DNA of 63,845 nt, filler included, from Perkinsus chesapeaki ATCC PRA-425 (taxonomy: Eukaryota; Protista; Perkinsozoa): the NCBI GenBank assembly GCA_013115145.1. It is 10 parts of 10 records of this genome, joined end to end, with 100 filler letters (N's around TTAATTAATTAA, not from the genome) between each part and the next. Parts side by side here need not be neighbours in the genome. Positions count along the whole stretch, not along the records: positions 1 to 11,339 come from JAAPAO010000850.1; 9 more parts are not named here. One strand, 5' to 3'. Each line of letters opens with the position of its first letter. Positions within the stretch are counted from its first letter, which is position 1. Shown here piece after piece: positions 1,539 through 25,679 of this stretch. Under the pieces are notes generated by a model. It saw nothing but the letters and a program-made list of their open reading frames with translations, searched no databases and was not told where the DNA came from. A program made the position numbers and the translations under genes.

Positions 1539-2423
1539 TTACTGATACGGTTCAATACCTTCATACAAAAACTTGACACTAACGTCCTCGGTGTAAACCT
1601 TATAGATATCACGCCAGTCTAAATGTACCCAGTGGGATGCACCCTGAACATTGTAGAAAACCAGCTGATTATTAGACTCTTTCGGGCATGGTAATCTCCA
1701 GAACCAAGTAAACCAACCGGTCCATACCTTCTCGTCCTGTGAAGAGCAGCCAAGTCTCTTAGCCCAACGATCAAAACTGTTCCATTTTTGAGGAAAGCTA
1801 CCGAAAAGGCTGACTCCGGACCATGGCACTATACCATCAACGCTACCGTGGAAGACAAGGAGAGACCTGTTAAAGGCCTGATTACCCTCTTTCATCTTCT
1901 CGTCGCACACATCGAGGCCTTTGTTACCACCAGGGCCAATGGTCAGGACACCGCTAGCGCTCACACCTCTCTGGACGACACCTTCGCACATGAGAACCTC
2001 TGTGAGCATACCACCGTTGGAGAAGCCATAACCATACACAGGAACATTCCCATGAACCTTTCGACGAGCTTCGATCGCCGATTTGATGTAGCTGATGTCG
2101 TCGTACTTTGGAAAGCAGCATCCACCAGCATTCCAGCTGCGTGATCCATCTATACCTATCGCTTGGGGCAGGATAATCTCATAACCGTACTTGTTGGCAT
2201 ACTTGCGGAAGTCGGTGTACCAAAGGAAAGTATCACTACTTTCGCCAAAGCCATGTAAAGTGAGCAATAGGGAAGTGATGGGGGTATTCTTCGGAGTGTA
2301 AACTCTATAGGCTCTCTCACCATCGGGGGTCTGTACACTTAGGACCTGTGTATCGATATCGGCGGATACAAACAGAACCCTGGTAGTCAGCAGAGCCAGA
2401 GGGAGGAGATCGAAGATCTTCAT
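1539..2423 (-). CDS. Secreted alpha/beta-hydrolase, LpqC / PHB-depolymerase-like esterase
   Basis: ATG at 2423, then a signal-like MKIFDLLPLALLTTRVLFVSA. Motifs LHGFG, WNAGGCC, nucleophile GFSNGG, FHGSVD (Asp) and GASH (His). Intronless. Confidence 0.8.
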   Translation of the reverse strand: MKIFDLLPLALLTTRVLFVSADIDTQVLSVQTPDGERAYRVYTPKNTPITSLLLTLHGFGESSDTFLWYTDFRKYANKYGYEIILPQAIGIDGSRSWNAGGCCFPKYDDISYIKSAIEARRKVHGNVPVYGYGFSNGGMLTEVLMCEGVVQRGVSASGVLTIGPGGNKGLDVCDEKMKEGNQAFNRSLLVFHGSVDGIVPWSGVSLFGSFPQKWNSFDRWAKRLGCSSQDEKVWTGWFTWFWRLPCPKESNNQLVFYNVQGASHWVHLDWRDIYKVYTEDVSVKFLYEGIEPYQ

Positions 2424-2881
2424 AACTAATAAAGTTTGAAAGCGAAATTCGGTCAAGTTCGGCTACGTGACATAGCTACGCCACGTACGTGCATTCTAAC
2501 TTATGTGTAGCGTCGCTGACGCCGCCACACCGCCAAAAATCTAGGAGGGCCACTATGAAGACGAACTAATTTGAAGCAGGGTGGCCTGTTTTTATATAAG
2601 ATACACGAAGTGTATCGAAGTGAAATCCGAACTAGTCCACCTCCCGGTCCACACGCATGCGCATTGTGGATGTCACGGGATGCAAGGACTCAGTGTCGGT
2701 GAATCAGCTGAGCTCTGGTCTGGCTTTTCTTGAGGGTCACACCGGAGCTGAGACGGAGCTCCTACCTTAACGGTCGAGAGCTCTGGCTCCGCTACTATCA
2801 GAAGAACTCGTGCCTTGTTCACCACGCTCACCACAAATGGCCTTCAGCGAGCCAATAGGCCACGCACACAAGCTTTCTGTG

Positions 2882-3157: not shown

Positions 3158-3244
3158 ATGATTCAGAGACTCTTTTCACTGGCAACCGCCGATATCATGG
3201 AGACGAGTAGCTAATGAGTCGATTAGCATTATTGTCTATTTATA

Positions 3245-5017
3245 TGTGACCTACTCCAGAAGTTTGGTGACCGTGGTTCAGTACCACTGGTACTGTACCA
3301 GTGGTACTGGTATTTGGGGTATACTATACTCCCTAAAGACCAGCCTCTTCACTGCATTGTTGATTCTAGTGATCTGGCATTGGGTGTCGTCATCTGCGAT
3401 GACAAAAATAATCCTTCAGATGAGTGCCGTCTACGAGCTATTGATGCTTCTACTAGCATTAAACATTCTCTCCACATAAATGTTGCTGAGCTGGATGCTA
3501 CTATATTTGGTCTTCAAAAATGTCAGTCTTTTGGTCATCGTCATGTGGACCTATACACAGATTCCAAAAGTGTTGCAGACTGGCTCCACATGTTATAAGA
3601 GAATCAGTGCATCCCCCACAGGGTATTCCGTTAGTATCTCGACTGAACCCCCTATCGAGCTTTCTCCTCCATTTGCTTTAGTTGCTGCCGGGCTGCAACT
3701 GGTGGGCGAGGAGGAGACGGAGTATACGGGTAGATTCTGGCCCTCGAAAGATGAATTGCTTGCTGTATATTCCTCAGTAACACGTCCCTTCATGGATAAG
3801 GGAGTTTATGGATCTGAGGGAATGCTCTACTGTATTATAAGAATCGTCTTTACTTGCCTGTCTTGTTTCGTAATGCTCTTATTCGTGGTATACACTGTTC
3901 CCATTTACATGCAGGTTCCGCTGAGGTTGAGAATGCTATAAAGCGAGGTTTGATTGGCCTGGCATGAGAGACGATGTCAGACATGTTATTTCCCAATGCT
4001 GTAATACAGTCCGTGAGAGAAATAAAGCTGTTACTCCCAAGCTTTCTGCCCCATCTCCACGACGCCTCTCTCACAAGCGTTGGTGGTGTGTGGCGGTTGA
4101 TGCCTTTAATGTTGAGGGTGTTCCAATCCTCTCTATCATTGATGAGTTTAGCAGATTTGCTCTGGTCCGCTTGCTGGCGGTTGAGAAGGCCGATGACGCT
4201 TATGAAGGTTTGGTCGGTTGCTTCGAATGTCCTCTACTTGGTTATCCAGCCTATGTTAGGTCTGATAGAGAGATATTTGTCAGCCTCCGTGAGCGCCTAC
4301 TTACTGGTGGCGTCGTTCTTATACTTACTTCTGGTTACAGGCCTACTGCTAATGCTGTGGTCGAGAGGCTACATCCAGGATGTAACATCCTACTATACGC
4401 TTGAGGCTATCGGTACTACAGCCTTCTGAGTCACTTTCTGTGAGACTCTCTCAACTTATTCGAGCATATAATAGTTCACCTCATTCAGCTCTAGAAGGAT
4501 CTTCTCCGGCAGAAGTGTTTCTAGGCATATGCCTAAGGGAGAAGTTTCATCTTCCAGTCCTAGTCCCTGATCCTGACGTTCCACCGGTCCGGTGCCACTC
4601 ACTGGCAGCCACTGGCACCGGACTCGCCGGCATTCGAGAAGGGCGACTTTGTCTGGCTGTTGAGACAGGTAGCTGAAGTTCAGCTGCTGAACGTCGTTCT
4701 GATACTAGATTTTATCCTCACCCTTACAAGGTTGTAGGATGTTCTCCATATGCTTATAAGCTATTAACAGTCGATGATGTTGGTACTACCAACTTGGTAG
4801 ATTGGTCTCTGCCACTGTAGCTAGACTGGTCCTTTGCAGAGAGCAACCTAACTCGAGTACGATAGCTGTTCCTAGGATTGTGTCTACTTCTGCTCCACCT
4901 CGTCACGTTCATGTTGATATAACTTCTTCTTCAGATGAGTCTGTTAGTAATCATGTTGTGATTCCTGTTGCTCAACCCTTACCGCGTAGGAATCGTCATC
5001 CTCCAGTTAGGTTTTAG
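3245..5017 (+). mobile_element. Decayed LTR retrotransposon pol (RNase H - integrase; Ty3/gypsy-like domain order)
   Basis: RNase H: CIVDSS, INVAELDA, LYTDSKS. Integrase Zn region: HLHAG...SQCC. DDE core: VAVDAF, RSDRE, ANAVVERLH. Tail RRNRHPPVRF. Broken by stops and frameshifts. Confidence 0.8.
3280..3309. other. hAT-type excision scar (extended by a fourth unit)
   Basis: AGTACCA+CTGGTACT+GTACCAG (word AGTACCAG), then TGGTAC again. 3279-3309 is a perfect 31-bp palindrome with a 1-nt centre. Confidence 0.75.
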
Positions 5018-5799: not shown

Positions 5800-8640
5800 A
5801 ACCGAAACGCCGAGTATTCGCGGCGAAGCTACTGTTTTACTGATTTGCATAACAAATTGGAACACCCTGTAGATCAGTTCGATCTACCGCGAATTGGTTA
5901 ACTCTACAAACTTCCCAACAACCCACTTAGCGCAGCTTGCAATTGTAGATAATCAATCTCGTGCCATGGTAACGGAACCATTGAAGCCAATGTACTTTTA
6001 GGATTCCGCGAGGCCTCATCACTCACTTTGTTGCAAACTCATCTTATGTCTACTGAGTTTACTCTATACTTAGTACTGGCAACTATCGTGACCATCAATT
6101 GCATCACCTCAGATGATTCACCTGTGATGTTGATGTGGACTTTTGCAATACTTAGCCGCCGGTGAATTATCTAACATGCACGTTATATATGCATTTTGAC
6201 AACTCATATCTTCTCCTTTCAGTATCATACACAATACTGCAGATAACAATTCTAAAGTACACATGTTGCCCGACCTTAGCTCAAGTGTTTGTTTCCCCAA
6301 CTTTTCCACCACTATATTCCATAGAGTCTATGGCATAGACCATTTTCGTTTTCACAACGAACATTTAAACATTTAGCTTTCCACGGAAAACCTTTCACGT
6401 AATAACACCCACCAAAACCAGAAAGGCTGGCACCAGTCACTGAAAGAATCTCCTTTGGATACTGGACCAATTTCCTTGAGGACACTGGTTGTTGAATCCG
6501 CTGTATAGTTGTAGGACACTGTCCTACAACTCGACTGTGAGCAGTATATTATTGCAGGTCCGATGAGCAGTGCCAACGAACTGCGCGAATGACTCCCCTC
6601 GCATTTCCGAATACTTTTTTAACACAAGTCAATGATTGTTACCCATCGGCTACTCAAACATCATCATAATCATGCCTTGGTACAGGTAAGATAATTTACC
6701 CAAGGCAACTTGAGGGTATTATTAGCTCTAACAGCATAACAACCATTACCGTATTCAGTATTAGTTGTAGACCAACGACTCATGTAACTGACCAACAAGG
6801 ACAATGGTGACTTGGTGACAATTGCGGCGATATCTCAGAAACGTAGAGACTAAGGACATATCTTTGCGTCTGCGTGCAGTTTTAGGCATGCACATCATGG
6901 ATTGATGATCATATTAAGTCTTCCAGTTGTGTTACAAATGTCCGATCTTGGAACTAGGTCTAAGGGATGCGTAGTGATTGGTCAGGCTCCCTCATCATTG
7001 AATTAATATACAAACCGTTTGTTTCATAAAAAGTTGTTGTTGTATTGGGAATTTCTCGCGCAACGTTCTTTGGGCTCTGGCCGCCCGAACTACCAGCGGT
7101 AAGTCGCCCACTCACCTCGGGATACCCTCCATCTGCTCCTTCCATCGATGTTCAGTCGTACGATAATACGAATTAGATCGACGGAAATGTCGGGCGAGTT
7201 CAGTCGTTGCCTGAATATGGGTAAACCCTACACTCTATCATGCACTTGTCCATACATCAGAGAGGCCTCGAAAGATTTTATGGGAACTGGCCACAAGCAC
7301 AAGTATGAATCCATAGTCAAAGACTCAGGCGGATATATGAGGAAGCATTTAATAATTACATATTCATTTCAATTTCATTTATTCACGTTCATGTGAAATT
7401 GACACTACTTCATAGCAGTACTAACAGAGTAAATGATCGAAAGTCTCCATATAATACTGGAAAGCGCTATTGCAACGATAATAGAAGTGGCAACGTTCAA
7501 GTCTGTCTCGTGAGGAGAACGCTAACCTTGTTATCATCTAAGTTACCCTTGGGGTCATCCTCCTCCCCAGCCGTGTATCCTCTCTAACGTGGATACTTCT
7601 ATCCTCCATTTTGGCACCCCTCCGCACCCGACGACCCTCAGCAACGGAACCAACTAAAGTTGATTGATGCTGGTGGGGCCGAAGTGATGCTAATACCTGA
7701 TCGAACGTAGTGAGTGAGGAAGACCGAGCCTTCAGGTGGCATGCCGTAATTTCGTGGCGCGTGACTTTATATTAAACTCTTACATTTATTCCAAAGCATG
7801 GTTCCGTCAAAGCAGAATTGTGTTCTGGTAATCTTTCGAACCTGATCGATCCTTCATTCACCTCATGAAGACTATCAATACTTTAGCGAATCCACCGGCT
7901 TGAAGCCACGTCCAGCAAGCACACCTCCAACCAGATGCGGAGCACTACTATAGTGCTTATGTGACCGAAAGGGCTCGATGTTAGGGTTGCTCGTGTGGTG
8001 CCTGTTTTAGGTGTTTGAAAATTACAAAGTCATCGAATGCCTTGAATACCCTCTTTCGCATCCTATTGATCGATATACGGCTGTTGTAGTCGGTGTTCGA
8101 TAACAGTCCATGTAGCAAGACTTGTAGAGTGAATTTCAGTTCTACTCACCCTGAATTATTAGCAACAACAAATATGAAGAATGGCATTGGAAAATATAGG
8201 CGATGACAGCACTCAATAAGATTCAACATATTATAGCGAGATCGTAGTAAACGGCAGGAATGAACATGCATCGAGGCGTGAAAAGTGTATCGAGATTTGC
8301 AAGCTGACCAACTGGACCGGATTCCTCGGGCGAGGAAGATAGAATCCTATTTTGTATCACCAAACGGGCGAGCTTGTTCTTCTTCTTTCACACGTGCGGC
8401 GCGGAGTAGCAATAGGAGGTGAGATAATATTATAAATGGGCTGGAGAGGTCGGAACGATGGTCTCTGCATCCTTCCTTCCACAATGACTTGAAACTTTCA
8501 AGTCAAAACTACTATACATAAGTATGCCTGAGCCTATGGTAGTCAATGTCATCCGATATAGTTTGTTAAGCAGTTGGCAGCGGTTGCTGCTACTGCTGCT
8601 GGTGCAACGGGAAGATCTTCCTTAATATTTATCCCTCCGC
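5800..8640 (-). CDS. Possible multi-exon hypothetical gene (boundaries unresolved)
   Basis: Short open segments bounded by GT/AG, e.g. GLLSNTDYNSRISINRMRKRVFKAFDDF, VNEGSIRFERLPEHNSALTEPCFGIN and PRNYGMPPEGSVFLTHYVRS. No family recognised; no complete model could be built. Confidence 0.25.
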
Positions 8641-9074
8641 TCCATCTGTTTAATGTTAATTGACCACACAAATACTCGGTGGTCAAATAAAGAAAAATAC
8701 GTCCGTTTTCGGATTCTTTTGCTGATACTGAATTTAACTCCTTTCATACGATTCTAGGCAAAGAAGTCATCAACGCTCGGAGGAGGCGGACCCTGAAACG
8801 GGAAACACACAACTGGCTCTGCTGCAAGGTGAATGCACGAAATCTATGTATATACGGAAAATGGTGAAATACAGTATCTGCTGCTGGCTGCCTTTCCAAA
8901 TAACCTCGGAGGAGAGGTGTAAAACGCATGAATGGTTAATGGTCGGAGGATAGAAAACTTACCGAATGGCATCGTTGTCGTGAGAATTGAACGCGTTATT
9001 AACAGAAAGTATATACTAATAGTAAAACCTTCAAGGAAGAAATATGCGTAGTCTACGTTTTAATCTACGCAAAC

Positions 9075-10309
9075 CTATTCTCCCACATTTTCCCATACTA
9101 CTACATTATCCTTATTTCCAGCTCCACTTCCTCCGCCTACCCCCTCATCAACATCCATCGGTGTTAGTCTCCAACCATACAGTGCTGGTAGCACCTTACT
9201 TTTAATAACATTAATCATGTTATCCCATTTACTCACCGATTCAACAAGAACTTGCATCGCCTTCAGTTCACCTGGAGTCGCATCAAGTGTAATAGTCTGA
9301 GCTGTTTTCTGATAAAAACGTGCAACTAGAGACAATGCAGCAGACATCCACGTGCTTAGCCCTCAGGGATACATACAATTTTCGAAATGTCTCTGCGTTA
9401 TAAATATTCATATTAGTTTATTTCCAGCCCCCTTGAAGCAGTAGCTGTTATTGCCCCTTCATAGATCGATAAATGCACTGCAACATAAATCTAACGTATC
9501 TGGAACTATACTCACTGAATACAGGTCCACTTTGGCCCCATTATCTCATTCGGGTAGCAGCAAAAACATTCACCCTGCTGCCCGCCTATTCCCCTCTATT
9601 ACTGTGGCCGCTATGCGAACTGCTTGCCTGGTCTGCTCGGAATCACCACCCTCATAGGGAACAGTGACCGGGGTAAATGTCAAGGACTGCGCACCAGTCT
9701 TAGAGAAGGCACTTGGCTCTAAGAGGTTGAAGCATGCATTTAATACCCTCAAAAGATACTACTACTTATAGTGCCTCCTGTTGTTGGTGATAACGTTAGC
9801 ATCTCAGCTGCCTTTGCAGCATTGAGCGTAATTGCCAACATCGATTGCTTGTCGTATGCTGCAAGAGAACGATTCAAGTAATCGAAATAAACGACAATAG
9901 TCTTAGTCATTCGAGGATTAAAAACAACAATACCATCCAAAAGATTAATTCGCAAAATTCGTTAATATATTGCCATATAGTAAAATGCAGCCTCTCGCAG
10001 CCTATTCAATACTTTCGATACTGATTGACCATGCTATTACTTTTGCCCTGTCCAGGAGCTGCCTTGTTCATGAATACCCATGAGAGCTTCCCTTCAGTCT
10101 TAACCTTCAATTCGCCATTAATTTTTTGGATTACCGCCTGAAGGTAGTAAGTAAACCAGATATCTCACCCCCCTTACTGGTGTTGGTTTTAACATGACCA
10201 TAGCCTTCTCAGTAAAGATGGTGAATGGTGCTGGTTGAACTGCACCATAGGAGGCAGCAGCAGCTGCCGAAGATACCTCATTCAGGTGTTGAAGGCAATT
10301 ACGTAACAT
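9075..10309 (-). CDS. Whirly-like ssDNA/RNA-binding protein (multi-exon)
   Basis: Phase-consistent splicing gives MLRNCLQH...FTIFTEKAMVMLKPTP|AVIQKINGELKVKTEGKLSWVFMNKAAPGQGK|TYDKQSMLAITLNAAKAAEMLTL...|...QSLTFTP...RIAAT|KTAQTITLDATPGELKAMQVLVES|VLPALYGW. This is colinear with plant Whirly motifs (SIYKGKAAL, QYDW..KQ.FSLS, KAEF...MP.LLGW). The stop may be at 9075 or, with one more intron, at 9060. Confidence 0.6.
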
Positions 10310-11170
10310 AATGCGGAGACTTAACTGAAAAAGTACGAGTGATGACAATTTTTTGTACTGGACGAGCGAGACGGACTTGTAATTGAGTTTCGTGGCGCGC
10401 AAGAATTTTCCTTCTGTTCATTTGCAACGTGGCGTGTGCTCTACCAGTCTTAATTTCAATTTGTATGAGTCCATTACAGAATTAGCAGCCACCGAGCCAC
10501 AAGTCAGCACCTGAAGTGAGCCATTTAAGGAGCGGTGAGGAATGGCTTACCGATAACGCCAGCCCATCCATAACCACCAATCTTCAGTATTAATAGGAGT
10601 TCGTCATGTTAATTTCTGTCGTGGATTTTTGATGGTTATCAACAATTATCTTGTTCTTCCATTTCAATATATATTTCATCCTTATAATAACCGTATCGGC
10701 ATCGATTTCATAGTTCTTGAACTACTTGTACCCTTCCATCACTCTGTCTGTGTTTTACATTACTGTCTGATTTGACTCCTTGTCTATGCTCTTTTTGGCG
10801 TGTTCAGCAGCTTGACCAATTCATTATCATTGTCCTATGTCCGACCAAGCTGAGCCTACTAAGCCATCGAATGATGAGTCAGTTTGCATTTCTAATGCAG
10901 ACTTGAACTCAATTGTTATTGATCCAAAGGAGATGCCTCCCACACCGGTACGACGGCGATGGCGGCCATGTTACTCGTTCTGTGTCATTTGTCTCCTTTT
11001 CAGAGTGATGTGAAAAGAACGTCAAATCGAGCTAATGAGAATTCTCGTCGTGAGTTTGTCGGCTGTATATAATATTATCTGTATCTTTAGGATTGAAGAA
11101 AACAAAGACCCGATGGTGGCATGACCATATGAGCGAGAATGCTTACCTGGGTAAGTGGGGTTACAAAATA

Positions 11171-11339
11171 ATAAATGTAATGAGGAAGTGGAGGCATAAA
11201 AATGATGTATAAATGTAATGAGAAAGTGGAGGCATAAAAATAATATATAAATGTAATGAGGAAGTAGAGGCATAAAAATAATATATAAATGTAATGAGGA
11301 AGTGGAGGCATAAAAATAATATATAAATGTAATGAGGAA
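11171..11339. repeat. 38-bp tandem repeat (~4.5 copies, runs into gap)
   Basis: Unit ATAAATGTAATGAGGAAGTGGAGGCATAAAAATAATAT starting at 11171, 11209 and 11247. Confidence 0.95.
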
Positions 11340-11439
11340 NNNNNNNNNNNNNNNNNNNNNNNNNNNNNNNNNNNNNNNNNNNNTTAATTAATTAANNNNN
11401 NNNNNNNNNNNNNNNNNNNNNNNNNNNNNNNNNNNNNNN
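11340..11439. other. Artificial contig spacer (first of nine)
   Basis: 44 N + TTAATTAATTAA + 44 N. Linkers start at 11384, 29477, 42382, 44799, 46328, 51976, 56013, 58559 and 62377. Plain N gaps lie at 34374-34470 and 62086-62180. Confidence 0.98.
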
Positions 11440-12384: not shown

Positions 12385-13200
12385 TTAGTTTTGATATTTT
12401 AATAATAATGGATATATATTACGGAAAGCATCACTAATATCTTGTCTATTTTTAGCACCAGTAAATACTATTTTACCAGATACAAATATTAATAATGCAA
12501 CTTTAGGTTCAAATAATCTAAATACTAAACCTGGATATAATTCAGGTTCATAACTACAATACGATCTATGTTCATAAGCTAGACCTTCTAATCGTATTGG
12601 AAATCTAACATCTGCTGATGCTACCATGTTTTCAATCTTAAATTTACAGAATTTAGTATTTGGATAACCACTTTTTATAACTATTTTAGCTACTTTTTTA
12701 GCCGCACTTTTAGCTGCATCTTCACTATTACTACCAGTTACCATAACTTTACCAGTACCATATAACATTGCAGTTGCTTTAGGTTCTCTAAATCTTATAA
12801 CAACAGCATTTACTTTACGTGGATTATATTCAGCATTACGTGCTTTAAATGCCACCTTTTTTAAATCAATAATACTATTACTACCACTTCCATCATCCAT
12901 ATTTATAATTAATTCTACTGATGCTATTACATTTTCTAATATTGGATATATACTTTCCGGTATTATATTATTATTATCATCATCATATACAACCATATCA
13001 TTATTATTAACCACCATAATACTACCATTGCCATTAACCTTTTCAACATTATCACCACTATTATCATCTTTCCGTTTATTAACTAATGCTTCTTCTTCTT
13101 CTTCCTCTTCTTCTTGTTGTTGCTGTGTAGTGTATTGTGTTGTAGTTGTTGGTATACAATCCTTATTCAACAAGGAATCTATATCAAAATCATTTAGCAT
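12385..13200 (-). CDS. TBP: TATA-binding protein (divergent)
   Basis: Two TBP repeats: LENVIASV, ARNAEYNP, TGKVMVTG, IENMVASADV.FPIRLEGL, SYEPELYPGL, LLIFVSGK. Probable ATG at 13200. Confidence 0.95.
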   Translation of the reverse strand: MLNDFDIDSLLNKDCIPTTTTQYTTQQQQEEEEEEEEALVNKRKDDNSGDNVEKVNGNGSIMVVNNNDMVVYDDDNNNIIPESIYPILENVIASVELIINMDDGSGSNSIIDLKKVAFKARNAEYNPRKVNAVVIRFREPKATAMLYGTGKVMVTGSNSEDAAKSAAKKVAKIVIKSGYPNTKFCKFKIENMVASADVRFPIRLEGLAYEHRSYCSYEPELYPGLVFRLFEPKVALLIFVSGKIVFTGAKNRQDISDAFRNIYPLLLKYQN

Positions 13201-13736
13201 TATAATAATAATAACTAATAATAAATAATAATATAACAACCCAAAACATGATATATCCCTAGTATATTATCATTATATGCAAACCTTTCTAGTATAATAA
13301 TAAGTAATCTAACATCTACTCATGCTATTAGATTCTCTATCTTAAAATTAATATTAAATTTAATATTATTATTATGTCTAACTTTTTGACTTATAAATTT
13401 ATAAACCTTTTTAGTCATATCTATTGTATATGTACCATTAATAATAAGTTAACCGTTACGATATAAATGTCGTTTTTGGATTACTATTATTATATATCAC
13501 CATTATTAATATCAGGCGATAATGGATGAGTAATACTTGATGTATTCGGTGTTAAAATATCATCCCAAATATTGTCAGACATAATGGAGATATACAAACA
13601 CCAATCCCAACAACAACAACCACTACCCGTCTCCGCCGCCGCCGCCGTATGATGATATCGATTATAATGGCGAGCGCCAATTAGGCTAAAGGGGGGGGTG
13701 GGGGTTGGTTAGCTGGTTGTTATTACTATTGTTATT

Positions 13737-16500
13737 ATGTCTGGAGTTATTGGTATAGATTTGGGTACTGCTGATGCTATTGTTGCATCTGTTGGTAGAG
13801 GTGTTGTTGATATAGTACGTAATGAAGTATCTGAAAGGAAGACACCATGTGTTGTTGGTTTTACATCTAAAAACAGATTAATAGGTAATAATAATAGGTT
13901 GTTATTATGACTATTATGAATAGGTGAATCTGCTATGACATCAATTAAATCTAATTATAAGAATACATGTCGTAATCCTAAACAACTATTGGGTAGATCA
14001 ATTGATGATCCTGAATTAGAAAAAGAGAAATTCTTTCAAATATGTGATAATGCAATTGCTAATGATGGTACTGCTGGTTATAAAGTATCCTATCTTGGTC
14101 AAAATAGAGTATTATCAGCAACTGTAGTTACATCAATGTTATTATCTAAACTTAAAGAGACTGCAGATATATTCACATCATCTAATAGTAAGGATGTTGT
14201 TATTGCGGTGCCATCATATTTTAAAGATTGTCATAGACAAGCAGTATTAGATGCATCACGTATAGCTGGTCTTAATTGTCTAAGAGTAATGAATGATTCA
14301 ACAGCAACAGCATTAGCTTATGGTATATATCGTAGTAATGAATTTAATGATACTAAACCAACTATAGTAGCATTTACATCTGTTGGTGCATCACATTTTG
14401 GTACTTGTATTGTTAAATTTACTAAGAGTCACCTAACTATTATTGGTGAAGCTATTGATACTACTGTTGGTGGTAGATATATTGATAAAGCATTAATGGA
14501 ATATTATGCTAATGAATTTAGTAAGAAGACTGGTGGCTTAAATCCATTAGATAATGCTAAATCAAGATTTAAGTTGGAAGAAGCTGTTAATAAAGTTAAA
14601 AAGATATTATCTGCTAATAATGAAGCAGTATTGGGTATTGAATGTTTATTAGAAGATGAGGACTTAAATGCTATAGTAACACGTGATAAATTAGAAGAAC
14701 TATGTAAACCTATGATTGATAAAATGGTTAATGTTATGAATAAAGCATTAAGTGAAGCAAATGTAAGTAAAGATGAATTAGACTCAGTTGAAATAGTTGG
14801 TGGTGTATCTAGAGTACCATTTATCCAGCATACTATTATTAATACATTTGGTATTAATGATCTATCAAGAACATTAAACGCTGATGAATGTGTTGCTAGA
14901 GGTTGTGCATTGCAGGCTGCTATGTTATCACCGTTATTTAAAGTTCGAGATTTTGCCGTAACTGACTTTATACAAGATGGTATACAAGTTGAATGGAAAG
15001 CAGCAGCATCATCAGCATCAGTAGTTACTGATAATAATAATGATAATACTACTAGTGAAGAAATGGGTGGTGGTGATGATGTTAAAAAGACTGAGGTATT
15101 TCAACCAAGGTCAACACTTAATATGGTTAAAATGTTAACTTTCTACCGTAAAGATCCATTTGAATTATCAGCACACTATTCAACAACATCATCATCGTCA
15201 TCATCATTGGGTAAATATATAATAGAAGTACCTCATAGTGATGTATCTAAAAAGATTAAAGTTAGAGCTAAACTAAGTTTACATGGTATATTTAGCATTG
15301 AGAATGCAGTATTATTAGAGGAAGAAGAATATACTGTTATAGAAAAGGAAAGAAGACCTAAACAACATAAGAAAGAAGAGAATGAGGAGGAGGATGTTAA
15401 TATGCCAGATGCTTCACCTAAGATAGATGATAATAATAATCAAGATGTTAATATGAAGCAAGATGAAGGAACAGCAGAGAAGCAGCAGCAGCAGCAGGAG
15501 CAGGAGGAGGAAGTAATGGCGGAGAGGGTGATAATATTAATAATTTATAATTAGGATAATAATAAAAAGAGAGATGATGAATATGAGGAAGTAGAAGTAA
15601 CGAAGACCAAGACAAGAACTAAGAAGACTGATATACCTATTAAACGTAATAATAATTATTACTTCAAGCAACAGCAACAACAACAACATTGTTATTGTTG
15701 TTACAAATGACAGGTTATGGTGTACCTGGGATGACAGATGAACAACTTGATATTGCTGAAAATGATGAGACTAAAATGAAAAGTATAGATAAAGAAGTAT
15801 CTGAAACTGATGAGAAAAGGAATGAATTGGAAAGTTATGTATTTGAAAGCAGGTAATAATAATAATAGTTTATATGTGTTATATAGTTGTTGTTATTATT
15901 AGGGATAAGATAAGCTCACCGTCATCTAAATGGTATGATTATTTAAGTGAATCTCAAAGAGATGAATTATCTAATATACTTATGAAAACTGAGGATTGGA
16001 TATATGATAATTATGATGCTAGTAAAGCTGAATATATGGATAAATTAATTGATATACGTAAATTGGGTGATGAAGCTGATAGAAGATTGATAGAGGCATC
16101 ATTAAGACCGGAAGCTGAAGCAACAGCTCAAGATACAATACAAAAATATAGATCATTAATCCAATCACCTGATAAGAGTTATATATCTAATGATAGTAAA
16201 GAATATATTATTAATGAATGTAATAAGCTGGAATCATGGTTATCCCAACATAAAGCATTACAAGCCCGTCAAGCATTATATATTAATCCAGTTTATACTG
16301 TTAATGAGCTTAATTCTAAAACACAATCGCTTATTAAAGTGGCTGATGGTATATTATCTCAACCTCCCCCAACTACTTCAACAACTCCAACTCCTACTAC
16401 TAATAACAATGGCTCATGTAATCCAACAATAGATGAGGTTGATGATTCTAGTAGTGCATCAGATGATAAGGATAATAATAATGATATGGATGTTGATTAA
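13737..16500 (+). CDS. HSP110: Hsp110/SSE-type Hsp70-family chaperone (multi-exon)
   Basis: MSGVIGIDLG, RNEVSERKTP, EIVGGVSRVP, TLNADECVARGCALQAAMLSP..KVRDF, acidic loop and C-terminal MDVD. Introns include 13885-13923 and 15513-15554. Confidence 0.92.
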
Positions 16501-17973: not shown

Positions 17974-19257
17974 CTAACTCGTTCGTAACTTGTTATTATT
18001 AGATGTTTTCTTAACATTATCTTCATTCTCATAAACAATAACTCTATTTTTATGAAATTTATATGCTTCTTCACTTCCTCTAGTAGCATCACCTTTAGTA
18101 TATGAATGTTTACCAGAACCAGCTAAATTACCATTATTAACAATAAGATATTCATTACGTATTGGTTTATTATTAAAATAAGATTCTAATATTTCAGCAG
18201 TACCGGCAGCATAACGTGTTTGAGCTGATAATGTAGTACCACTTACATGTGGTGTCATAGCATGGTGTGGCATATGTCTCCATGGATGATTATCAGGGGC
18301 AGGTTGTGGAAACCATACATCACCAGCATAACCACCAAGATGACCATTCTCTAATGCATCTCTAATAGCATCTCTATCACATATTTTACCTCTAGCAGTA
18401 TTAACTATATATGATCCTCTTTTCATTTTATTAATAAGCTCTTTATTAAATAAATGTTCAGTTTGTGGATGTAATGGACAATTAATAGTAACAACATCAC
18501 ATACTTTAACCATATCTTCAATATTTTTATGATAAGTTAAACCAAGTTCTTTTTCAATATCATCTGATAAACGATAATTATCAGTATAATGTAAATGTAC
18601 GTCAAAGGGTTTTAAACGTCTTAATACAGCAATACCAATTCTACCAGCAGCAACTGTACCAATATGCATACCTTCAATATCATATGATCTAGATACACAA
18701 TCAGCAATATTCCAACCACCTTCAATAACTGTTTTATAACAAGGTATATAATTACGTACTAGACTTAATATAAGCATAATCACATGTTCACTAACTGATA
18801 TAGAGTTTGAATATGTAACTTCAGCAACAGTAACATTATTATTACAAGCAGCTTCTAAATCAATATGGTCTGATCCTATACCAGCAGTAATACATAGTTT
18901 TAACTTATGTGCCATATTGAAACGTTCTTTAGTCATATAAGCTGGCCAAAATGGTTGGCTAATAACAACAACTGCATCTTTTAAATGTTTTTCAAATTCA
19001 CAATTATCACCATCTTTATCAGAAGTTACTACAAGTTCATAACCATATTTTTCAACTAATTTCCTAATACCAAGTTCACCAGATACAGAACCAAGTAATA
19101 TACCAGGTTTAAAATATGTATCTTTATTTGTTATAATAGGTGCTTTTTGACCATCTGGATATACTTCAATATTAGGTATATCATCTCTTGGATACATATG
19201 AGGATAACCATTAATAGGATCATCATATAATACACATAATACTTTACCACTACTCAT
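17974..19257 (-). CDS. fdh: NAD-dependent formate dehydrogenase, bacterial type
   Basis: KVLCVLYDDP, GSVSGELG, ISQPFWPAY, TAGIGSDH, AAGRIG, INCPLHP, NTARG, GDVWFPQPAP, HVSGT. Intronless, 427 aa. Confidence 0.97.
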   Translation of the reverse strand: MSSGKVLCVLYDDPINGYPHMYPRDDIPNIEVYPDGQKAPIITNKDTYFKPGILLGSVSGELGIRKLVEKYGYELVVTSDKDGDNCEFEKHLKDAVVVISQPFWPAYMTKERFNMAHKLKLCITAGIGSDHIDLEAACNNNVTVAEVTYSNSISVSEHVIMLILSLVRNYIPCYKTVIEGGWNIADCVSRSYDIEGMHIGTVAAGRIGIAVLRRLKPFDVHLHYTDNYRLSDDIEKELGLTYHKNIEDMVKVCDVVTINCPLHPQTEHLFNKELINKMKRGSYIVNTARGKICDRDAIRDALENGHLGGYAGDVWFPQPAPDNHPWRHMPHHAMTPHVSGTTLSAQTRYAAGTAEILESYFNNKPIRNEYLIVNNGNLAGSGKHSYTKGDATRGSEEAYKFHKNRVIVYENEDNVKKTSNNNKLRTS

Positions 19258-19445
19258 CAGATATAGACTCTATATTAGTTCAGGGGGAGTAGGAGGTCGG
19301 CCTGGAGGTTCCTGTATATGCGTGCAACTTTGATTATTACGCCATTGTAATCGATGTAATTATCGCTACGACATTTATTAATTCAGATTCGCCCTATTGT
19401 GCTCATTTGTAATTCCTTAACCCCACAGGTTCCAGTACCTTGATT

Positions 19446-21730: not shown

Positions 21731-24700
21731 TTATCTTTCTTCTATCTCTTTAACTTTCTTCATAACTGCTTTTAATTGCGCAGTTTCCCCCATTTTACAT
21801 TTCTTCTTACCCCTATCATCTCCTTCATTATTATTGGATCTATTAATATAGATGGTGATAATAATAGTAGTATAATAATATGAATTATATTATTTACCTT
21901 CTTTTATTATTATTTAATATATCTTTACTAATACCAACATCATGACCAAATCCTTTTAATTCACCATAATTAACATAACATTCATCATAATCTCCACCAC
22001 TCATAAAATCTAATAATAGATAATAATAATAATAATAAACTAAACCATATTCAATATCAACAGTTAATAGTTAATAAATCATCGTCATCATCTATTCCAT
22101 CACCACCATTCTCACCTCCTCTTCCTCCTCCTCCTCCTTGTTGTTGTTGGCTTATTATTCGTTTCGCTACTAAATGTTTATGAACTGCTTCTGTTAATTT
22201 ATTAACTAACATATTATTAATTATAAAATATTATTATAACAATATTATTACTACCTTCGTTATTATCCATTATTTCACTGCTATTGCTATGCCCTATCAT
22301 CGTTTTATCAAAGTAGGAATTATTATTATTATTATTATTAGCTCCACTATTATCTTCTATATTATTCTTATCCCAAATCTACTTCCATATTTTATACATA
22401 TATTCATACTATCCATTATTACTTTATCATCATTATTATTATCCTCATTATTATTATCTTCAAATATATTTACATTATTATCTACTACTACTACAGTATC
22501 ATCATCCTTTCTATTATCTTTTGATTGACTTATAATCGATACTCTATTTTTATAATAATCATCCTTATCATTATCATCATCTTCTTTACCATCATAATCA
22601 CCACCTTTTCTTTTGTATATCGTATTATTATTTTTATTACGCCTTAATGTACTACTAGTGGCTTGTGTTAATATATCTTCATTATATCTGATCATGATGA
22701 TATAATAATAGTAATAATAATAATAAATATTAATAATGTCATCATTATCATATATATCACACCTGGATACATATAATTTATTATCATCCTCTTCTCTATT
22801 ATTATTATATTTTGTAACTGATTCATAAATCTCAATAGGTATTATATCTTCATTATCGTTTGGATCTATATTCATTTTATAATAACATGTACCATTAATA
22901 AACCTATTAATAACATAATAATATCAGCAACAAAAACATGAGCAGTAATTACTTTTTTGATGATCCTTTTATTTTAGCATTGATACTCATTTCACCTATC
23001 ATTTTAGTCTGTTTTTGAATAATATATTTAATACCATATCTATTCGGATGTAATTGTCCAAATAATACTCTAAAAGAACAATAGACAATAATTATAATAC
23101 TAATGTTAAATATTATAATATTATCACTTCTCAATACCTCTACCCATAATTGTCCTTATACCACCACCACCATTATTAATAATACCCCTTCCATCAACTA
23201 CTTTATCAACTCTCATCGGCATCTGCTGCTGTTCTTCTTCTTCTTGTTTATTATTTATTAATTGTTGTTTTATTCTATTTGCTAATTGTATATCTAATCC
23301 TTTAACTAAATGTGTTGTACTCTCATCACCACCAAGATACATTGATTCGTTAACAGTTAACTTTTTATACTTTTCCCAATCAGCTTCAGCAGCATTAACT
23401 TCATTAGATATACCTAGTAATAATACTATAATAATAATTATATAATAATTGAACTATAATAATAATAATTATATAATAATAGTATAATAATAATTATATA
23501 ATAATAGTATAATAATAATTATATAATAATAGTAACAAACACTGACCTCGAATAGATTGGGAAGAATATCAAACCAGAAATCAAATGGGTAGGAATCTGG
23601 CTGAATCCCAGAGGAACTTGGAGACAACAGGTGGAGCATGCACTTGGAAAAGGTAAACGGGTTACCCTATGTCTTCTTAGAAGTATCATAGGACGAGACA
23701 GAAACATTGACCCAAAGCTTGCTATACTCGGGTGGAAAACACACGTATTACCCACTATACTCTATGGCTGTGAAATATGGGGCCAAGTGGCCAAATACAA
23801 ATGGTACATTAACAAATGTACCCAACTAGAAGCCACCTTCGGGCGGCTTCTCTTTGGTATGGTAAAAACTGCTCCGACCGCCCTAGCCGCAAAACTGCTA
23901 GCAACCCTGGTAGAACCAATCTGGGTACACACCAGGCTTCGATATGTCCGAGCCAAGCTACACAAAATTCGACCTGAACCACACCAGGCAACACCCAGTC
24001 TGCTAACCACCCTCAAGAACTGGGGAGTCACGAGCATCACAGATAGGGAGGTATACAACCTACCCAACACTGTACACGTAAACCCGGAAAATCTAGAAAG
24101 AATTCATACAGTGATAGAGAAAGGAGATCCACCCACCATAGAAGTACGGGGAAACACAAACTTGTATTTCTTGTCGGATGGATCAGTCATAGATAAAGGG
24201 AACGTGTCCTCTGCCAAGACTGGAGCAGGCACGATCCTCTATGCTCCAGAGGAACCACTAGGTTTTGAGGGACGTGCATATTACACAGGAGAATAAACCA
24301 ACATAGCTCAATGTGAGCTAGTTGGATGAGTTGAACGATCGCTGGTCTGGGCCAACGAAATCGCTGAGACACGGGTGGATCTCAAAAACCTATATATCTG
24401 CCTAGACTCGCAGGCCGCACTCCGAGCAATACAGAGTGCCCTACACAATTCTGATTGCACTGAACTTACCCTGGATATTGTGAAGCAGACACACAAATGG
24501 CTGGAGGCCCGCGACAGGAGGGTACACTACTGGTGGGTGCGTGGACACTGTGGACACATTTACAATGAGCTCAGTGATATATTCGCTGGCCGAGCGGCTA
24601 GAGGGGTGGCTCACCCCATCCCACGACAGGTTAGGAAACCCCTATCCTTCACGAAACTTCAGATAACTTGCATGGCGCACCACGAGATGGAGGAGACCTG

Positions 24701-25679
24701 GCGGAAACAGAGTAACAGCCTTCTCGCAGTCTCCTCCAGAATAGGCCTAGGCCTCGTTGGGCGTACTACCCAATTGGGAAAGAAGCTGGCAGTGAAGACG
24801 CTCGGATGGAAAGCCGAAGATCGGCGACGAATCTTCGAGCTCCTCACATTCCACAGCAATACAAAAGGATATAAACAACACTTCACCAATGAAACATTGG
24901 ACACGCGCTGTAGGTACTGTAAAGACTACAGAGAAGACATGGCTCATTTCTTCTGGTGTCCGTCGGTGAAACTTACGAAACTCAGAGAAGAAATATGGAT
25001 AGACAAAAAGTTTACTCGTCCCCTATCTGGAGAGCGCATTGCCATCGGAATGGCGCTCATCCGTGACTCCATTGTTGGAGAAGGTAGAGGACTCTACAGA
25101 GTGCGACGATTCCTCAGGATAGTTGCCCCAGTATGGGGAGAACCAAGAATGGAAAAGAGTGGTGTGGACCCACTGCTGCATCCTGGACCGCAGTAAAGGT
25201 AAAGTTGAAACTATCACGGTTGGTATAAACAGTAAGCGGATGTGAGATCTATATCCGAATGGCATCGTGTACACTGCTGCCGGAGGCCACATACCCATAC
25301 TGCCTAGCAGGAGATGCTGTGTCTCCAGATAAATAATATAAAAATATAATAATAGTATTTCAACCATATGCGTATTACCTTTTTTCCGTTCTAATACTCT
25401 ATCTCTATAACCAAGACTTGCAATGTTAATAACATCACCACCCAGCTCATCATCTTTATCATCTACTACTGCAGTATTATTGTTATTATTGGCTTTATTT
25501 ATTGCTCTTTGCCTTAATCTATATCTGAATAATAATATAATAATAATAATTGCATTCAGTAATAATAATCACTTTTCTTTTTTCTTAGCTTGTATTAATC
25601 TTTTCTTATTTTTAGCATCCTCTTCAGCTTTATTATCTTCCAATAATTTATTACGAAATGCATCATTACTTGATATCAT
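21731..25679 (-). CDS. IK: RED/IK spliceosomal protein (multi-exon)
   Basis: MISSNDAFRNKLL, GYRDRVLERKK|G, YLGGDESTTHLVKGLD and GGDYDECY match RED-family motifs. Intron 25378-23414 holds a retroelement. Confidence 0.8.
23535..25343 (+). mobile_element. 5'-truncated non-LTR retrotransposon (RT end - RNase H - CCHC) inside a RED intron
   Basis: IKWVGIWLN (RT end), YFLSDGS, QCELVG, ICLDSQAAL, WWVRGHCGHIYNELSD and CRYC...HFFWC. In-frame stops at 23553, 24294 and 24327. Flanked by the 14-bp duplication ATATAATAATAGTA (23521-23534 and 25344-25357). Confidence 0.88.

What the first reader, a model, noticed from the sequence alone, without database searches (positions are those of the whole stretch)
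9075..10309. Hidden multi-exon Whirly-like gene in a non-plant alveolate
The ORF track shows only unrelated fragments, but phase-consistent GT-AG splicing gives a protein colinear with plant Whirly domains from the first strand to the terminal LP.L.GW. Whirly-fold proteins are known as organellar ssDNA binders in plants and as guide-RNA matchmakers (MRP1/2) in trypanosome mitochondria. The MLR... start could be a mitochondrial presequence (inference). A role in maintaining or expressing an unusual myzozoan mitochondrial genome would be notable.
Basis: partly seen in the sequence, partly recalled or inferred. Interest (0 to 1): 0.7.

Follow-up and report, generated by a model that had tools for sequence, protein, structure and literature searches.

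The report
Mitochondrial Whirly protein in Perkinsus

Summary
The gene is real. The window is Perkinsus chesapeaki DNA. RNA contigs from two studies give introns 1-4 exactly, support intron 5 with a 16-base loose end, and show a spliced leader joined 15 bases before the ATG. A profile of 23 non-green relatives hits all six plant Whirly sequences in the PDB (E 3e-19 to 7e-12); MRP1 scores only 0.42. The predicted fold matches Whirly, and a homotetramer of the P. marinus orthologue is predicted (0.83 vs 0.00). In published P. marinus proteomics that orthologue is enriched in the mitochondrial fraction like mitochondrial EF-Ts and is not in the mitoribosome. Relatives occur in Vitrella and Platyproteum. 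Best reading: a mitochondrial single-strand-binding protein for mtDNA upkeep; an RNA-chaperone role is the main rival. Nucleic-acid binding is untested, the KGKAAL motif is altered, and the native gels do not show a tetramer. I found no paper on alveolate Whirly proteins.

The parts
10325..10326 (-). AG acceptor for spliced-leader trans-splicing; the mRNA body starts at 10324
   Evidence: Spliced-leader loose end in X1, X2, X3, X6; compared with PMC3101222
10310..10324 (-). 15-nt 5' UTR without an ATG
10178..10309 (-). Coding exon 1 (codons 1-44): likely mitochondrial presequence (about residues 1-25), then the first Whirly strands with TEKAMV in place of KGKAAL
   Evidence: RNA; amphipathic start, hydrophobic moment 0.61-0.65; alignment to StWhy2
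10138..10177 (-). Intron 1, 40 nt, GT-AG, phase 0
   Evidence: Joint in 6 of 6 runs
10041..10137 (-). Coding exon 2
9859..10040 (-). Intron 2, 182 nt, GT-AG, phase 1
   Evidence: Joint in 6 of 6 runs
9766..9858 (-). Coding exon 3: YDK motif (green Whirly YDW/YNW), strand 4 and helix 1
9719..9765 (-). Intron 3, 47 nt, GT-AG, phase 1; RNA picks the first of three in-frame donors
   Evidence: Joint in 6 of 6 runs
9603..9718 (-). Coding exon 4: strands of the second repeat
9309..9602 (-). Intron 4, 294 nt, GT-AG, phase 0
   Evidence: Joint in X4 and X5, and in X2 with a short side
9237..9308 (-). Coding exon 5: last strand and helix 2
9195..9236 (-). Intron 5, 42 nt, in frame and stop-free; retained in the NCBI model
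   Evidence: 16-base loose end in X4 matches exon 6; gap in homologues
9141..9194 (-). Coding exon 6: LPALYGW, end of the Whirly domain, start of the linker
8793..9140 (-).
   Evidence: NCBI model P0001 and tblastn; no RNA cover
8754..8792 (-). Coding exon 7 (inferred): Pro-rich stretch, acidic-aromatic tip SVDDFF, stop
   Evidence: The tip pattern is in 12 of 19 non-green rows examined, near-duplicates included, and 0 of 2 Whirly rows with a strong Pfam score

Best explanation
This expressed, spliced-leader-capped nuclear gene encodes a 200-residue relative of plant Whirly proteins that is likely imported into the mitochondrion, is predicted to form a ring of four, and would coat single-stranded mitochondrial DNA during replication and recombination repair. 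Steps. (1) Shown: trans-splicing and introns 1-4; supported: intron 5; inferred: intron 6. (2) Supported through the P. marinus orthologue: the first 25 or so residues act as a presequence for the mitochondrion. (3) Predicted with good support: residues about 27-179 form the twofold four-strands-plus-helix Whirly domain, and four copies pack helix to helix. (4) Inferred from the family: sequence-independent binding of single strands, which prevents wrong annealing in an AT-rich, rearranging genome. (5) Inferred, weakest: the floppy linker and acidic-aromatic tip dock a partner enzyme, as the tail of bacterial SSB does (recalled).
For: Splicing. Homology: the non-green profile hits AtWHY2, StWhy2, p24, AtWHY1 and AtWHY3 at E 3.5e-19 to 6.9e-12; the mitochondrial WHY2 chains rank first. 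Fold: both AlphaFold models give 16 PDB matches at E<=1e-3, and all 11 printed are plant Whirly. Tetramer: score 0.83, best of 3 controls 0.00, 96% contact agreement, pLDDT 74 or more. That mark was reached by 21 of 30 solved pairs and 0 of 23 single chains in microbes, and by 17 of 29 and 0 of 30 in eukaryotes; since Whirly tetramers are solved, the pass may come from memory. Location: the orthologue C5LB82 is in both mitochondrial replicates and DeepLoc calls it mitochondrial with a transit peptide. Its mitochondrial/whole-cell iBAQ ratio is 2.6, against 1.5 and 0.9 for two mitochondrial controls and 0.04-0.11 for four non-mitochondrial ones. The lysine that aligns with StWhy2 K67, needed for cooperative binding of long ssDNA (PMC3245945), is kept in this orthologue group. 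Perkinsus mtDNAs are 82-86% AT and rearranged between species (PMC9550989).
Against: No binding data exist for any member. KGKAAL is not intact, and the K67-equivalent lysine is missing from 13 of the other 15 non-green rows (two of them lack the region). The conserved Trp of green YDW is Lys in 17 of 18 non-green rows, which could mean backbone-type binding like MRP1/2 on RNA. In detergent blue-native gels the orthologue peaks in slices 7-11 together with monomeric proteins. Only 21% of its signal runs at 86 kDa or more (EF-Ts 4%, eIF5A 11%), so a stable native tetramer is not shown. The mitochondrial fraction also holds ER, and the two fractions differ in strain and detergent. Pfam Whirly is below cut-off for this protein (17.3 vs 23 bits). 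Maize WHY1 binds RNA as well as DNA (PMC2532728, title and abstract start only).
Confidence: 0.55

Rival explanations
1. It is a mitochondrial RNA chaperone: the same ring binds transcripts or rRNA fragments by their backbone and helps them anneal, get processed or assemble into the fragmented mitoribosome, working like MRP1/MRP2 but without editing.
For: Trp-to-Lys change in the YDW motif and loss of KGKAAL; basic core, 17 K+R against 11 D+E. MRP1/2 bind the RNA backbone while WHY2 stacks on bases (PMC7549692). Perkinsus mitochondrial rRNA is fragmented. P. olseni has at least three divergent paralogues, which would allow mixed rings. The abundance is comparable to mitochondrial EF-Ts.
Against: Sequence and fold are much closer to plant Whirly than to MRP1/2 (E 1e-19 vs 0.42; 4e-9 vs 2e-3). 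Only 0.04% of the orthologue's signal is in the top gel slices where the mitoribosome runs. No mRNA editing in Perkinsus cob or cox1.
Confidence: 0.3
2. It acts mainly outside the mitochondrion (relict plastid or nucleus), like dual-targeted plant WHY1/WHY3.
For: Plant Whirlies are multi-compartment (PMC9070903). The enriched fraction is organellar, not pure. The presequence is short, with only one Arg and one Glu in the first 30 residues.
Against: DeepLoc calls the orthologue mitochondrial. No hydrophobic signal peptide is visible at the start (by eye). Histone H3 is depleted from the fraction in which it is enriched. The Perkinsus plastid is thought to lack DNA (recalled).
Confidence: 0.08
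3. It keeps the Whirly fold but no longer binds nucleic acid, and serves as a scaffold through its conserved helix 2 and acidic tip.
For: The best-conserved positions in the non-green rows cluster in helix 2 and the LPxLYGW motif, which lie in the predicted subunit interface.
Against: Basic and aromatic positions of the first repeat (F29, F32, G60, K/R69, K80) are also conserved. The Whirly-fold proteins in the papers read all bind nucleic acid.
Confidence: 0.07

Closest known systems
Plant mitochondrial WHY2 (StWhy2 3N1H, AtWHY2 4KOP) and plastid WHY1/WHY3/p24 (4KOO, 4KOQ, 1L3A); Pfam PF08536
   Same: Colinear over the whole domain, same predicted fold, predicted homotetramer, N-terminal organelle leader, K67-equivalent lysine kept in this orthologue group.
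   Different: 14-19% identity in structural alignments; KGKAAL reads TEKAMV; YDW reads YDK; below Pfam cut-off; an S-x-[DE][DE]-FF tip absent from the two strong Whirly rows examined; found in Myzozoa, outside the green lineage.
Trypanosoma brucei MRP1/MRP2 (2GIA, 2GID, 2GJE)
   Same: Whirly fold, mitochondrial, tetrameric (PMC7549692); Foldseek probability 1.0.
   Different: About 10% identity, profile E 0.42. MRP1/2 is a guide-RNA heterotetramer, and no editing was found in Perkinsus cob or cox1.
Phage Whirly-fold proteins (UniProt A0A6J5NR37 'Whirly transcription factor' of an uncultured phage; ChmC of jumbo phages)
   Same: Fold match E 1.8e-6, TM 0.75 by target length. ChmC is a homotetramer that binds RNA and DNA and has a disordered tail (10.1101/2023.09.22.559000).
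   Different: 17% identity; no leader or introns expected; my pattern scans found no close prokaryotic or viral relative.
Pur-alpha / PC4-like superfamily
   Same: Same repeat topology; weak Foldseek matches (E 5e-3 to 1e-2).
   Different: No sequence similarity found; not a whirligig tetramer.

Membership tests
Whirly (PF08536 / plant WHY) | Sequence homology across the whole Whirly domain | tested here: met
   Profile of 23 non-green sequences hits 6 of 6 plant Whirly PDB sequences at E<=7e-12; reciprocal scores
Whirly (PF08536 / plant WHY) | Passes the Pfam gathering score (23 bits) | tested here: not met
   P0001 17.3 bits. Of 19 relatives scanned, 11 hit Whirly and 6 reach the cut-off.
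Whirly (PF08536 / plant WHY) | Twofold beta-beta-beta-beta-alpha fold | tested here: met
   AlphaFold models, mean pLDDT 70-71 with most core blocks 75-93; Foldseek top hits are Whirly. Predicted, not solved.
Whirly (PF08536 / plant WHY) | Homotetramer (whirligig) | tested here: inconclusive
   Prediction for the P. marinus orthologue passes (0.83 vs 0.00) but may come from memory; published native gels do not resolve a tetramer
Higher-plant WHIRLY in the strict sense | KGKAAL motif | tested here: not met
   TEKAMV/TDKAMV; only the second Lys and the next Ala are kept. Algal WHIRLY-like proteins also lack the motif (PMC9070903).
Whirly (PF08536 / plant WHY) | N-terminal organelle targeting peptide | tested here: met
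   Amphipathic start; DeepLoc call and fraction enrichment of the orthologue. Indirect.
Whirly (PF08536 / plant WHY) | Sequence-independent ssDNA binding; 24-mer on long DNA | not testable with these tools
   Needs biochemistry
MRP1/MRP2 | Sequence relationship to MRP1/MRP2 | tested here: not met
   E 0.42 for MRP1, no MRP2 hit
MRP1/MRP2 | Heterotetramer acting on guide RNAs in editing | not tested
   Mixed rings with paralogues were not modelled (one job only); no editing reported in Perkinsus

The most novel reading that the evidence does not exclude
Myzozoa keep their own ancient mitochondrial Whirly clade, marked by YDK and an SSB-like acidic tip. It serves as the single-strand-binding protein of their reduced, recombination-prone mitochondrial genomes, or as the chaperone of their fragmented rRNA. 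Whirly would then be no green-lineage invention but an older, possibly bacterial or phage-derived, organelle protein shared with alveolates.
Probability: 0.35. Interest if true: 0.75.

Novelty: new variant of a known kind. Interest (0 to 1): 0.52.

Why it matters
Papers place the origin of WHIRLY in the ancestor of green plants and report it absent from red algae, haptophytes and stramenopiles (PMC11135702, PMC4166229, PMC4827209). An expressed, likely mitochondrial clade in Perkinsus, Vitrella and Platyproteum does not fit that. It also supplies a concrete, testable candidate for handling single strands in myzozoan mitochondria, whose genomes are tiny, rearranged and carry fragmented rRNA; a review of them never mentions an SSB (PMC8554336, term search). 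The surprise is tempered because Whirly-like proteins are already labelled in a phage record and noted in bacteria by earlier unchecked notes of this scan.

Tried and rejected
Single exons give no Pfam hit (0 of 7). Models with extra small exons inside intron 4 (10,041 open paths) were rejected because RNA skips all 294 bases. The whole-cell native-gel smear at slices 8-21 first looked like oligomers but is shared by small proteins such as eIF5A, ARF, Rab11, glutaredoxin and Cox17, so it says nothing. The tree (21 rows) does not resolve the origin: branches are long, the deep nodes are open, and one P. olseni paralogue falls with the green rows, probably by long-branch attraction. Pattern scans found no relative in prokaryote genomes (0 of 60 and 0 of 43 candidates) or viral contigs (0 of 34 and 0 of 90); tblastn on GenBank phages found none; PHROGs matched 1 of 23 members weakly. 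These scans are insensitive and do not show absence. A third homologue search with the wide alignment returned only five known rows. Four long repeat proteins among the 25 profile hits (P0009, P0014, P0016, P0017) were dropped unexamined as likely spurious. No RNA covers 8300-9176, which proves nothing with contigs. No whole genome is held, so paralogues and a canonical mitochondrial SSB in P. chesapeaki could not be sought. The ESM Atlas and VIA-align searches gave no answer, so no second structural aligner was run. The DNA-Whirly crystal paper (PMC2910959) is not held, so the base-stacking role of the YDW tryptophan is recalled. S1 Table of PMC13623125 was cut when stored and its raw-gel PDF could not be read.

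Full report
1. Observation. The minus strand of 10309-8754 holds a seven-exon gene. I built splice models from the sequence and laid six public RNA runs on the region (4 samples, 2 studies). Introns 1-3 (40, 182 and 47 nt) are skipped in 6 of 6 runs and intron 4 (294 nt) in 3 of 6, all at GT-AG ends. The main contigs show no mismatch to the window. Intron 5 (42 nt, in frame) rests on one 16-base loose end in X4 and on a gap in the homologues. All four contigs that reach the 5' end carry a loose end of 18-20 bases. With the shared AG, the form in X1 and X6 matches the published Perkinsus leader PmaSL1 at 21 of 22 bases and the dinoflagellate probe over 14 of 14. The mRNA is therefore trans-spliced at 10324, and 10309 is the first ATG. 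Exons are 49% GC and introns 40%. A second, related transcript differs at 10 listed sites, 9 of them synonymous.

2. Identity and corrections. The protein search returned FOL47_010702 of Perkinsus chesapeaki, identical to the window's exons, and a P. marinus orthologue. The NCBI model adds 12 N-terminal residues, which the spliced leader rules out for these transcripts, and it keeps intron 5. It also splices a last exon at 8792-8754. No RNA covers that joint, but the tip it encodes (S-x-[DE][DE]-FF) is present in 12 of 19 non-green rows examined, including P. marinus, P. olseni and Vitrella (near-duplicates counted). The corrected protein has 200 residues and 21.2 kDa.

3. Family. Alone, the protein scores 17.3 bits on Pfam Whirly (cut-off 23) and E 0.074 on AtWHY2. 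A five-sequence Perkinsus profile hits StWhy2 at 2.5e-5 along the whole domain. Run against 1.84 billion representatives, it gave 25 hits at E<=1e-3. Two were already known, I fetched 19, and I dropped 4 long repeat proteins. Of the 19, 11 hit Pfam Whirly and 6 reach the cut-off. Named owners are P. olseni, Vitrella brassicaformis, Platyproteum vivax and Chlorella. No hit was named Toxoplasma, Plasmodium or a core dinoflagellate, but the profile was narrow. A profile of 23 non-green sequences hits all six plant Whirly sequences in the PDB at E 3.5e-19 to 6.9e-12, and MRP1 at 0.42. A profile without the Perkinsus orthologues scores the spliced model 128 bits, against 3.1 for the best of 500 shuffles.

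4. Structure. AlphaFold models of the P. marinus protein and of the window's NCBI protein (alignment without green rows; intron 5 still included) both show strands-helix-strands-helix, with a disordered start and linker. Foldseek gives 16 PDB matches at E<=1e-3 for each. The 11 printed are all plant Whirly, followed by MRP1/2 and Pur-alpha. Four copies of P. marinus residues 19-190 score 0.83 against 0.00 for the best of three controls, with 96% contact agreement and pLDDT of 74 or more, helix 1 packing on the neighbour's helix 2. The mark was reached by 21 of 30 solved pairs and 0 of 23 single chains; solved Whirly tetramers exist, so the pass may only reflect likeness. Against viral models the best match is a phage protein already labelled Whirly (E 1.8e-6).

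5. Location. The first 11-12 residues are amphipathic and are followed by an Ala/Ser stretch. The complexome study of P. marinus (PMC13623125) never mentions Whirly or this gene in its main text, but the orthologue C5LB82 appears in both mitochondrial replicates, in the whole-cell set and in the mitochondrially predicted table; DeepLoc calls it mitochondrial with a transit peptide. From the supplement rows, its summed mitochondrial/whole-cell iBAQ ratio is 2.6, against 1.5 (mitochondrial EF-Ts), 0.87 (Cox17) and 0.04-0.11 (eIF5A, ARF, uS10, MBF1). These are six controls I picked, one replicate, different strains and detergents, and the fraction also holds ER. It does not run with the mitoribosome (0.04% of signal in slices 57-60). 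Against my reading: in DDM it peaks in slices 7-11 like monomeric proteins, with 21% of signal at 86 kDa or more (24% in replicate 2, with a small bump near 110-160 kDa), and the whole-cell profile is a smear shared by small proteins.

6. How it most likely works. Shown: expression and most of the splicing. Supported: mitochondrial location, Whirly fold. Predicted: a tetramer. Inferred: it binds single strands without sequence preference and protects them during replication and recombination of the mitochondrial DNA, as WHY2 does (PMC3245945, PMC7549692); the acidic-aromatic tip may recruit a partner, as bacterial SSB tails do (recalled). I give this 0.55. The lysine that aligns with K67 is kept here, but KGKAAL is otherwise changed and green YDW reads YDK in 17 of 18 non-green rows. 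An RNA-chaperone role therefore stays a strong rival (0.30), relevant to the fragmented rRNA. A guide-RNA role is unlikely, as Perkinsus cob and cox1 are not edited. Nothing links the protein to the Perkinsus frameshifts.

7. What is known. It is a sequence homologue of the Whirly family, outside the strict higher-plant group, and not an MRP1/2. Papers state a green-lineage origin. Full-text searches: Whirly with Perkinsus 0 papers; with apicomplexa 5, Toxoplasma 2, Plasmodium 12, dinoflagellate 6; Whirly/non-plant/homolog/protist, any three terms, 227 papers with 25 listed. By title, none of those listed treats an alveolate Whirly; I opened four of them. One search was too loose to count, and subscription journals are not covered. 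Earlier unchecked notes of this scan describe bacterial and phage Whirlies, some with acidic tails (158 findings, 8 shown); none is on this protein. My tree cannot settle the origin.

8. Papers, as seen. Passages only: PMC11135702, PMC3101222, PMC9070903, PMC7549692, PMC3245945, PMC9550989, PMC8554336, PMC4827209, PMC5010701, PMC4166229, PMC11756805 (nothing relevant) and 10.1101/2023.09.22.559000. PMC13623125: abstract, sections 6, 7, 11 and 33, S3 Table whole, and rows of S1, S2 and S9. PMC2532728: search listing only. PMC2910959: not held.

9. Verdict. A real, expressed gene and a new myzozoan variant of a known family, likely mitochondrial; function inferred. Interest 0.52.

Noticed in passing
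RNA contigs laid on window 9658-10245 (X1 record 2, X2 record 2): A second spliced transcript, under 90% alike, with introns at matching places and mostly synonymous changes: a paralogue, or the gene of another Perkinsus in the same sample.
   Followed up: partly
P0005, P0006, P0007, P0021 (P. olseni records): Two further divergent Whirly-like paralogues. One (P0005) has the same tip and a presequence-like start. P0006 joins it to a Band-7 protein and is named 'HIR complex subunit', probably a gene-model fusion.
   Followed up: partly
L001 692-1372; L002; L003: An intronless version of the gene in compact, eukaryote-looking metagenome contigs; this clade ends in a KSP[ED][DE]FFKQF tail; organism unknown.
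   Followed up: partly
P0028 / P0034 (unnamed JGI records): A eukaryote-type protein with a strong Pfam Whirly score (73.9 bits), a presequence-like start and an acidic-aromatic end; owner unknown; may bridge the green and myzozoan groups.
   Followed up: no
window 10325-10326: The spliced leader here matches the dinoflagellate probe dinoSLa/s exactly over 14 bases and differs from P. marinus PmaSL1 at one base, in line with the paper's guess that the P. chesapeaki leader exon differs.
   Followed up: partly
window 12385-13266 (-), 13920-16500 (+), 17974-19269 (-): An AT-rich block (24-31% GC over most of 12-24 kb) with long open frames for TBP, an Hsp70-family protein and a D-2-hydroxyacid dehydrogenase that looks like formate dehydrogenase (that label is recalled).
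   Followed up: partly
window 3227-4429 and 23556-25196: Broken retroelement-like frames (integrase-like and RT/RNase H-like by eye).
   Followed up: no
window 1539-2462 (-): An intronless 307-residue frame with a signal-peptide-like start and an esterase-like motif by eye; no Pfam hit at E<=0.001.
   Followed up: partly
window 11177-11340: A tandem repeat of about 39 bases running into the first N gap; the contig of the NCBI record is 11,339 bases long, which fits this gap.
   Followed up: no
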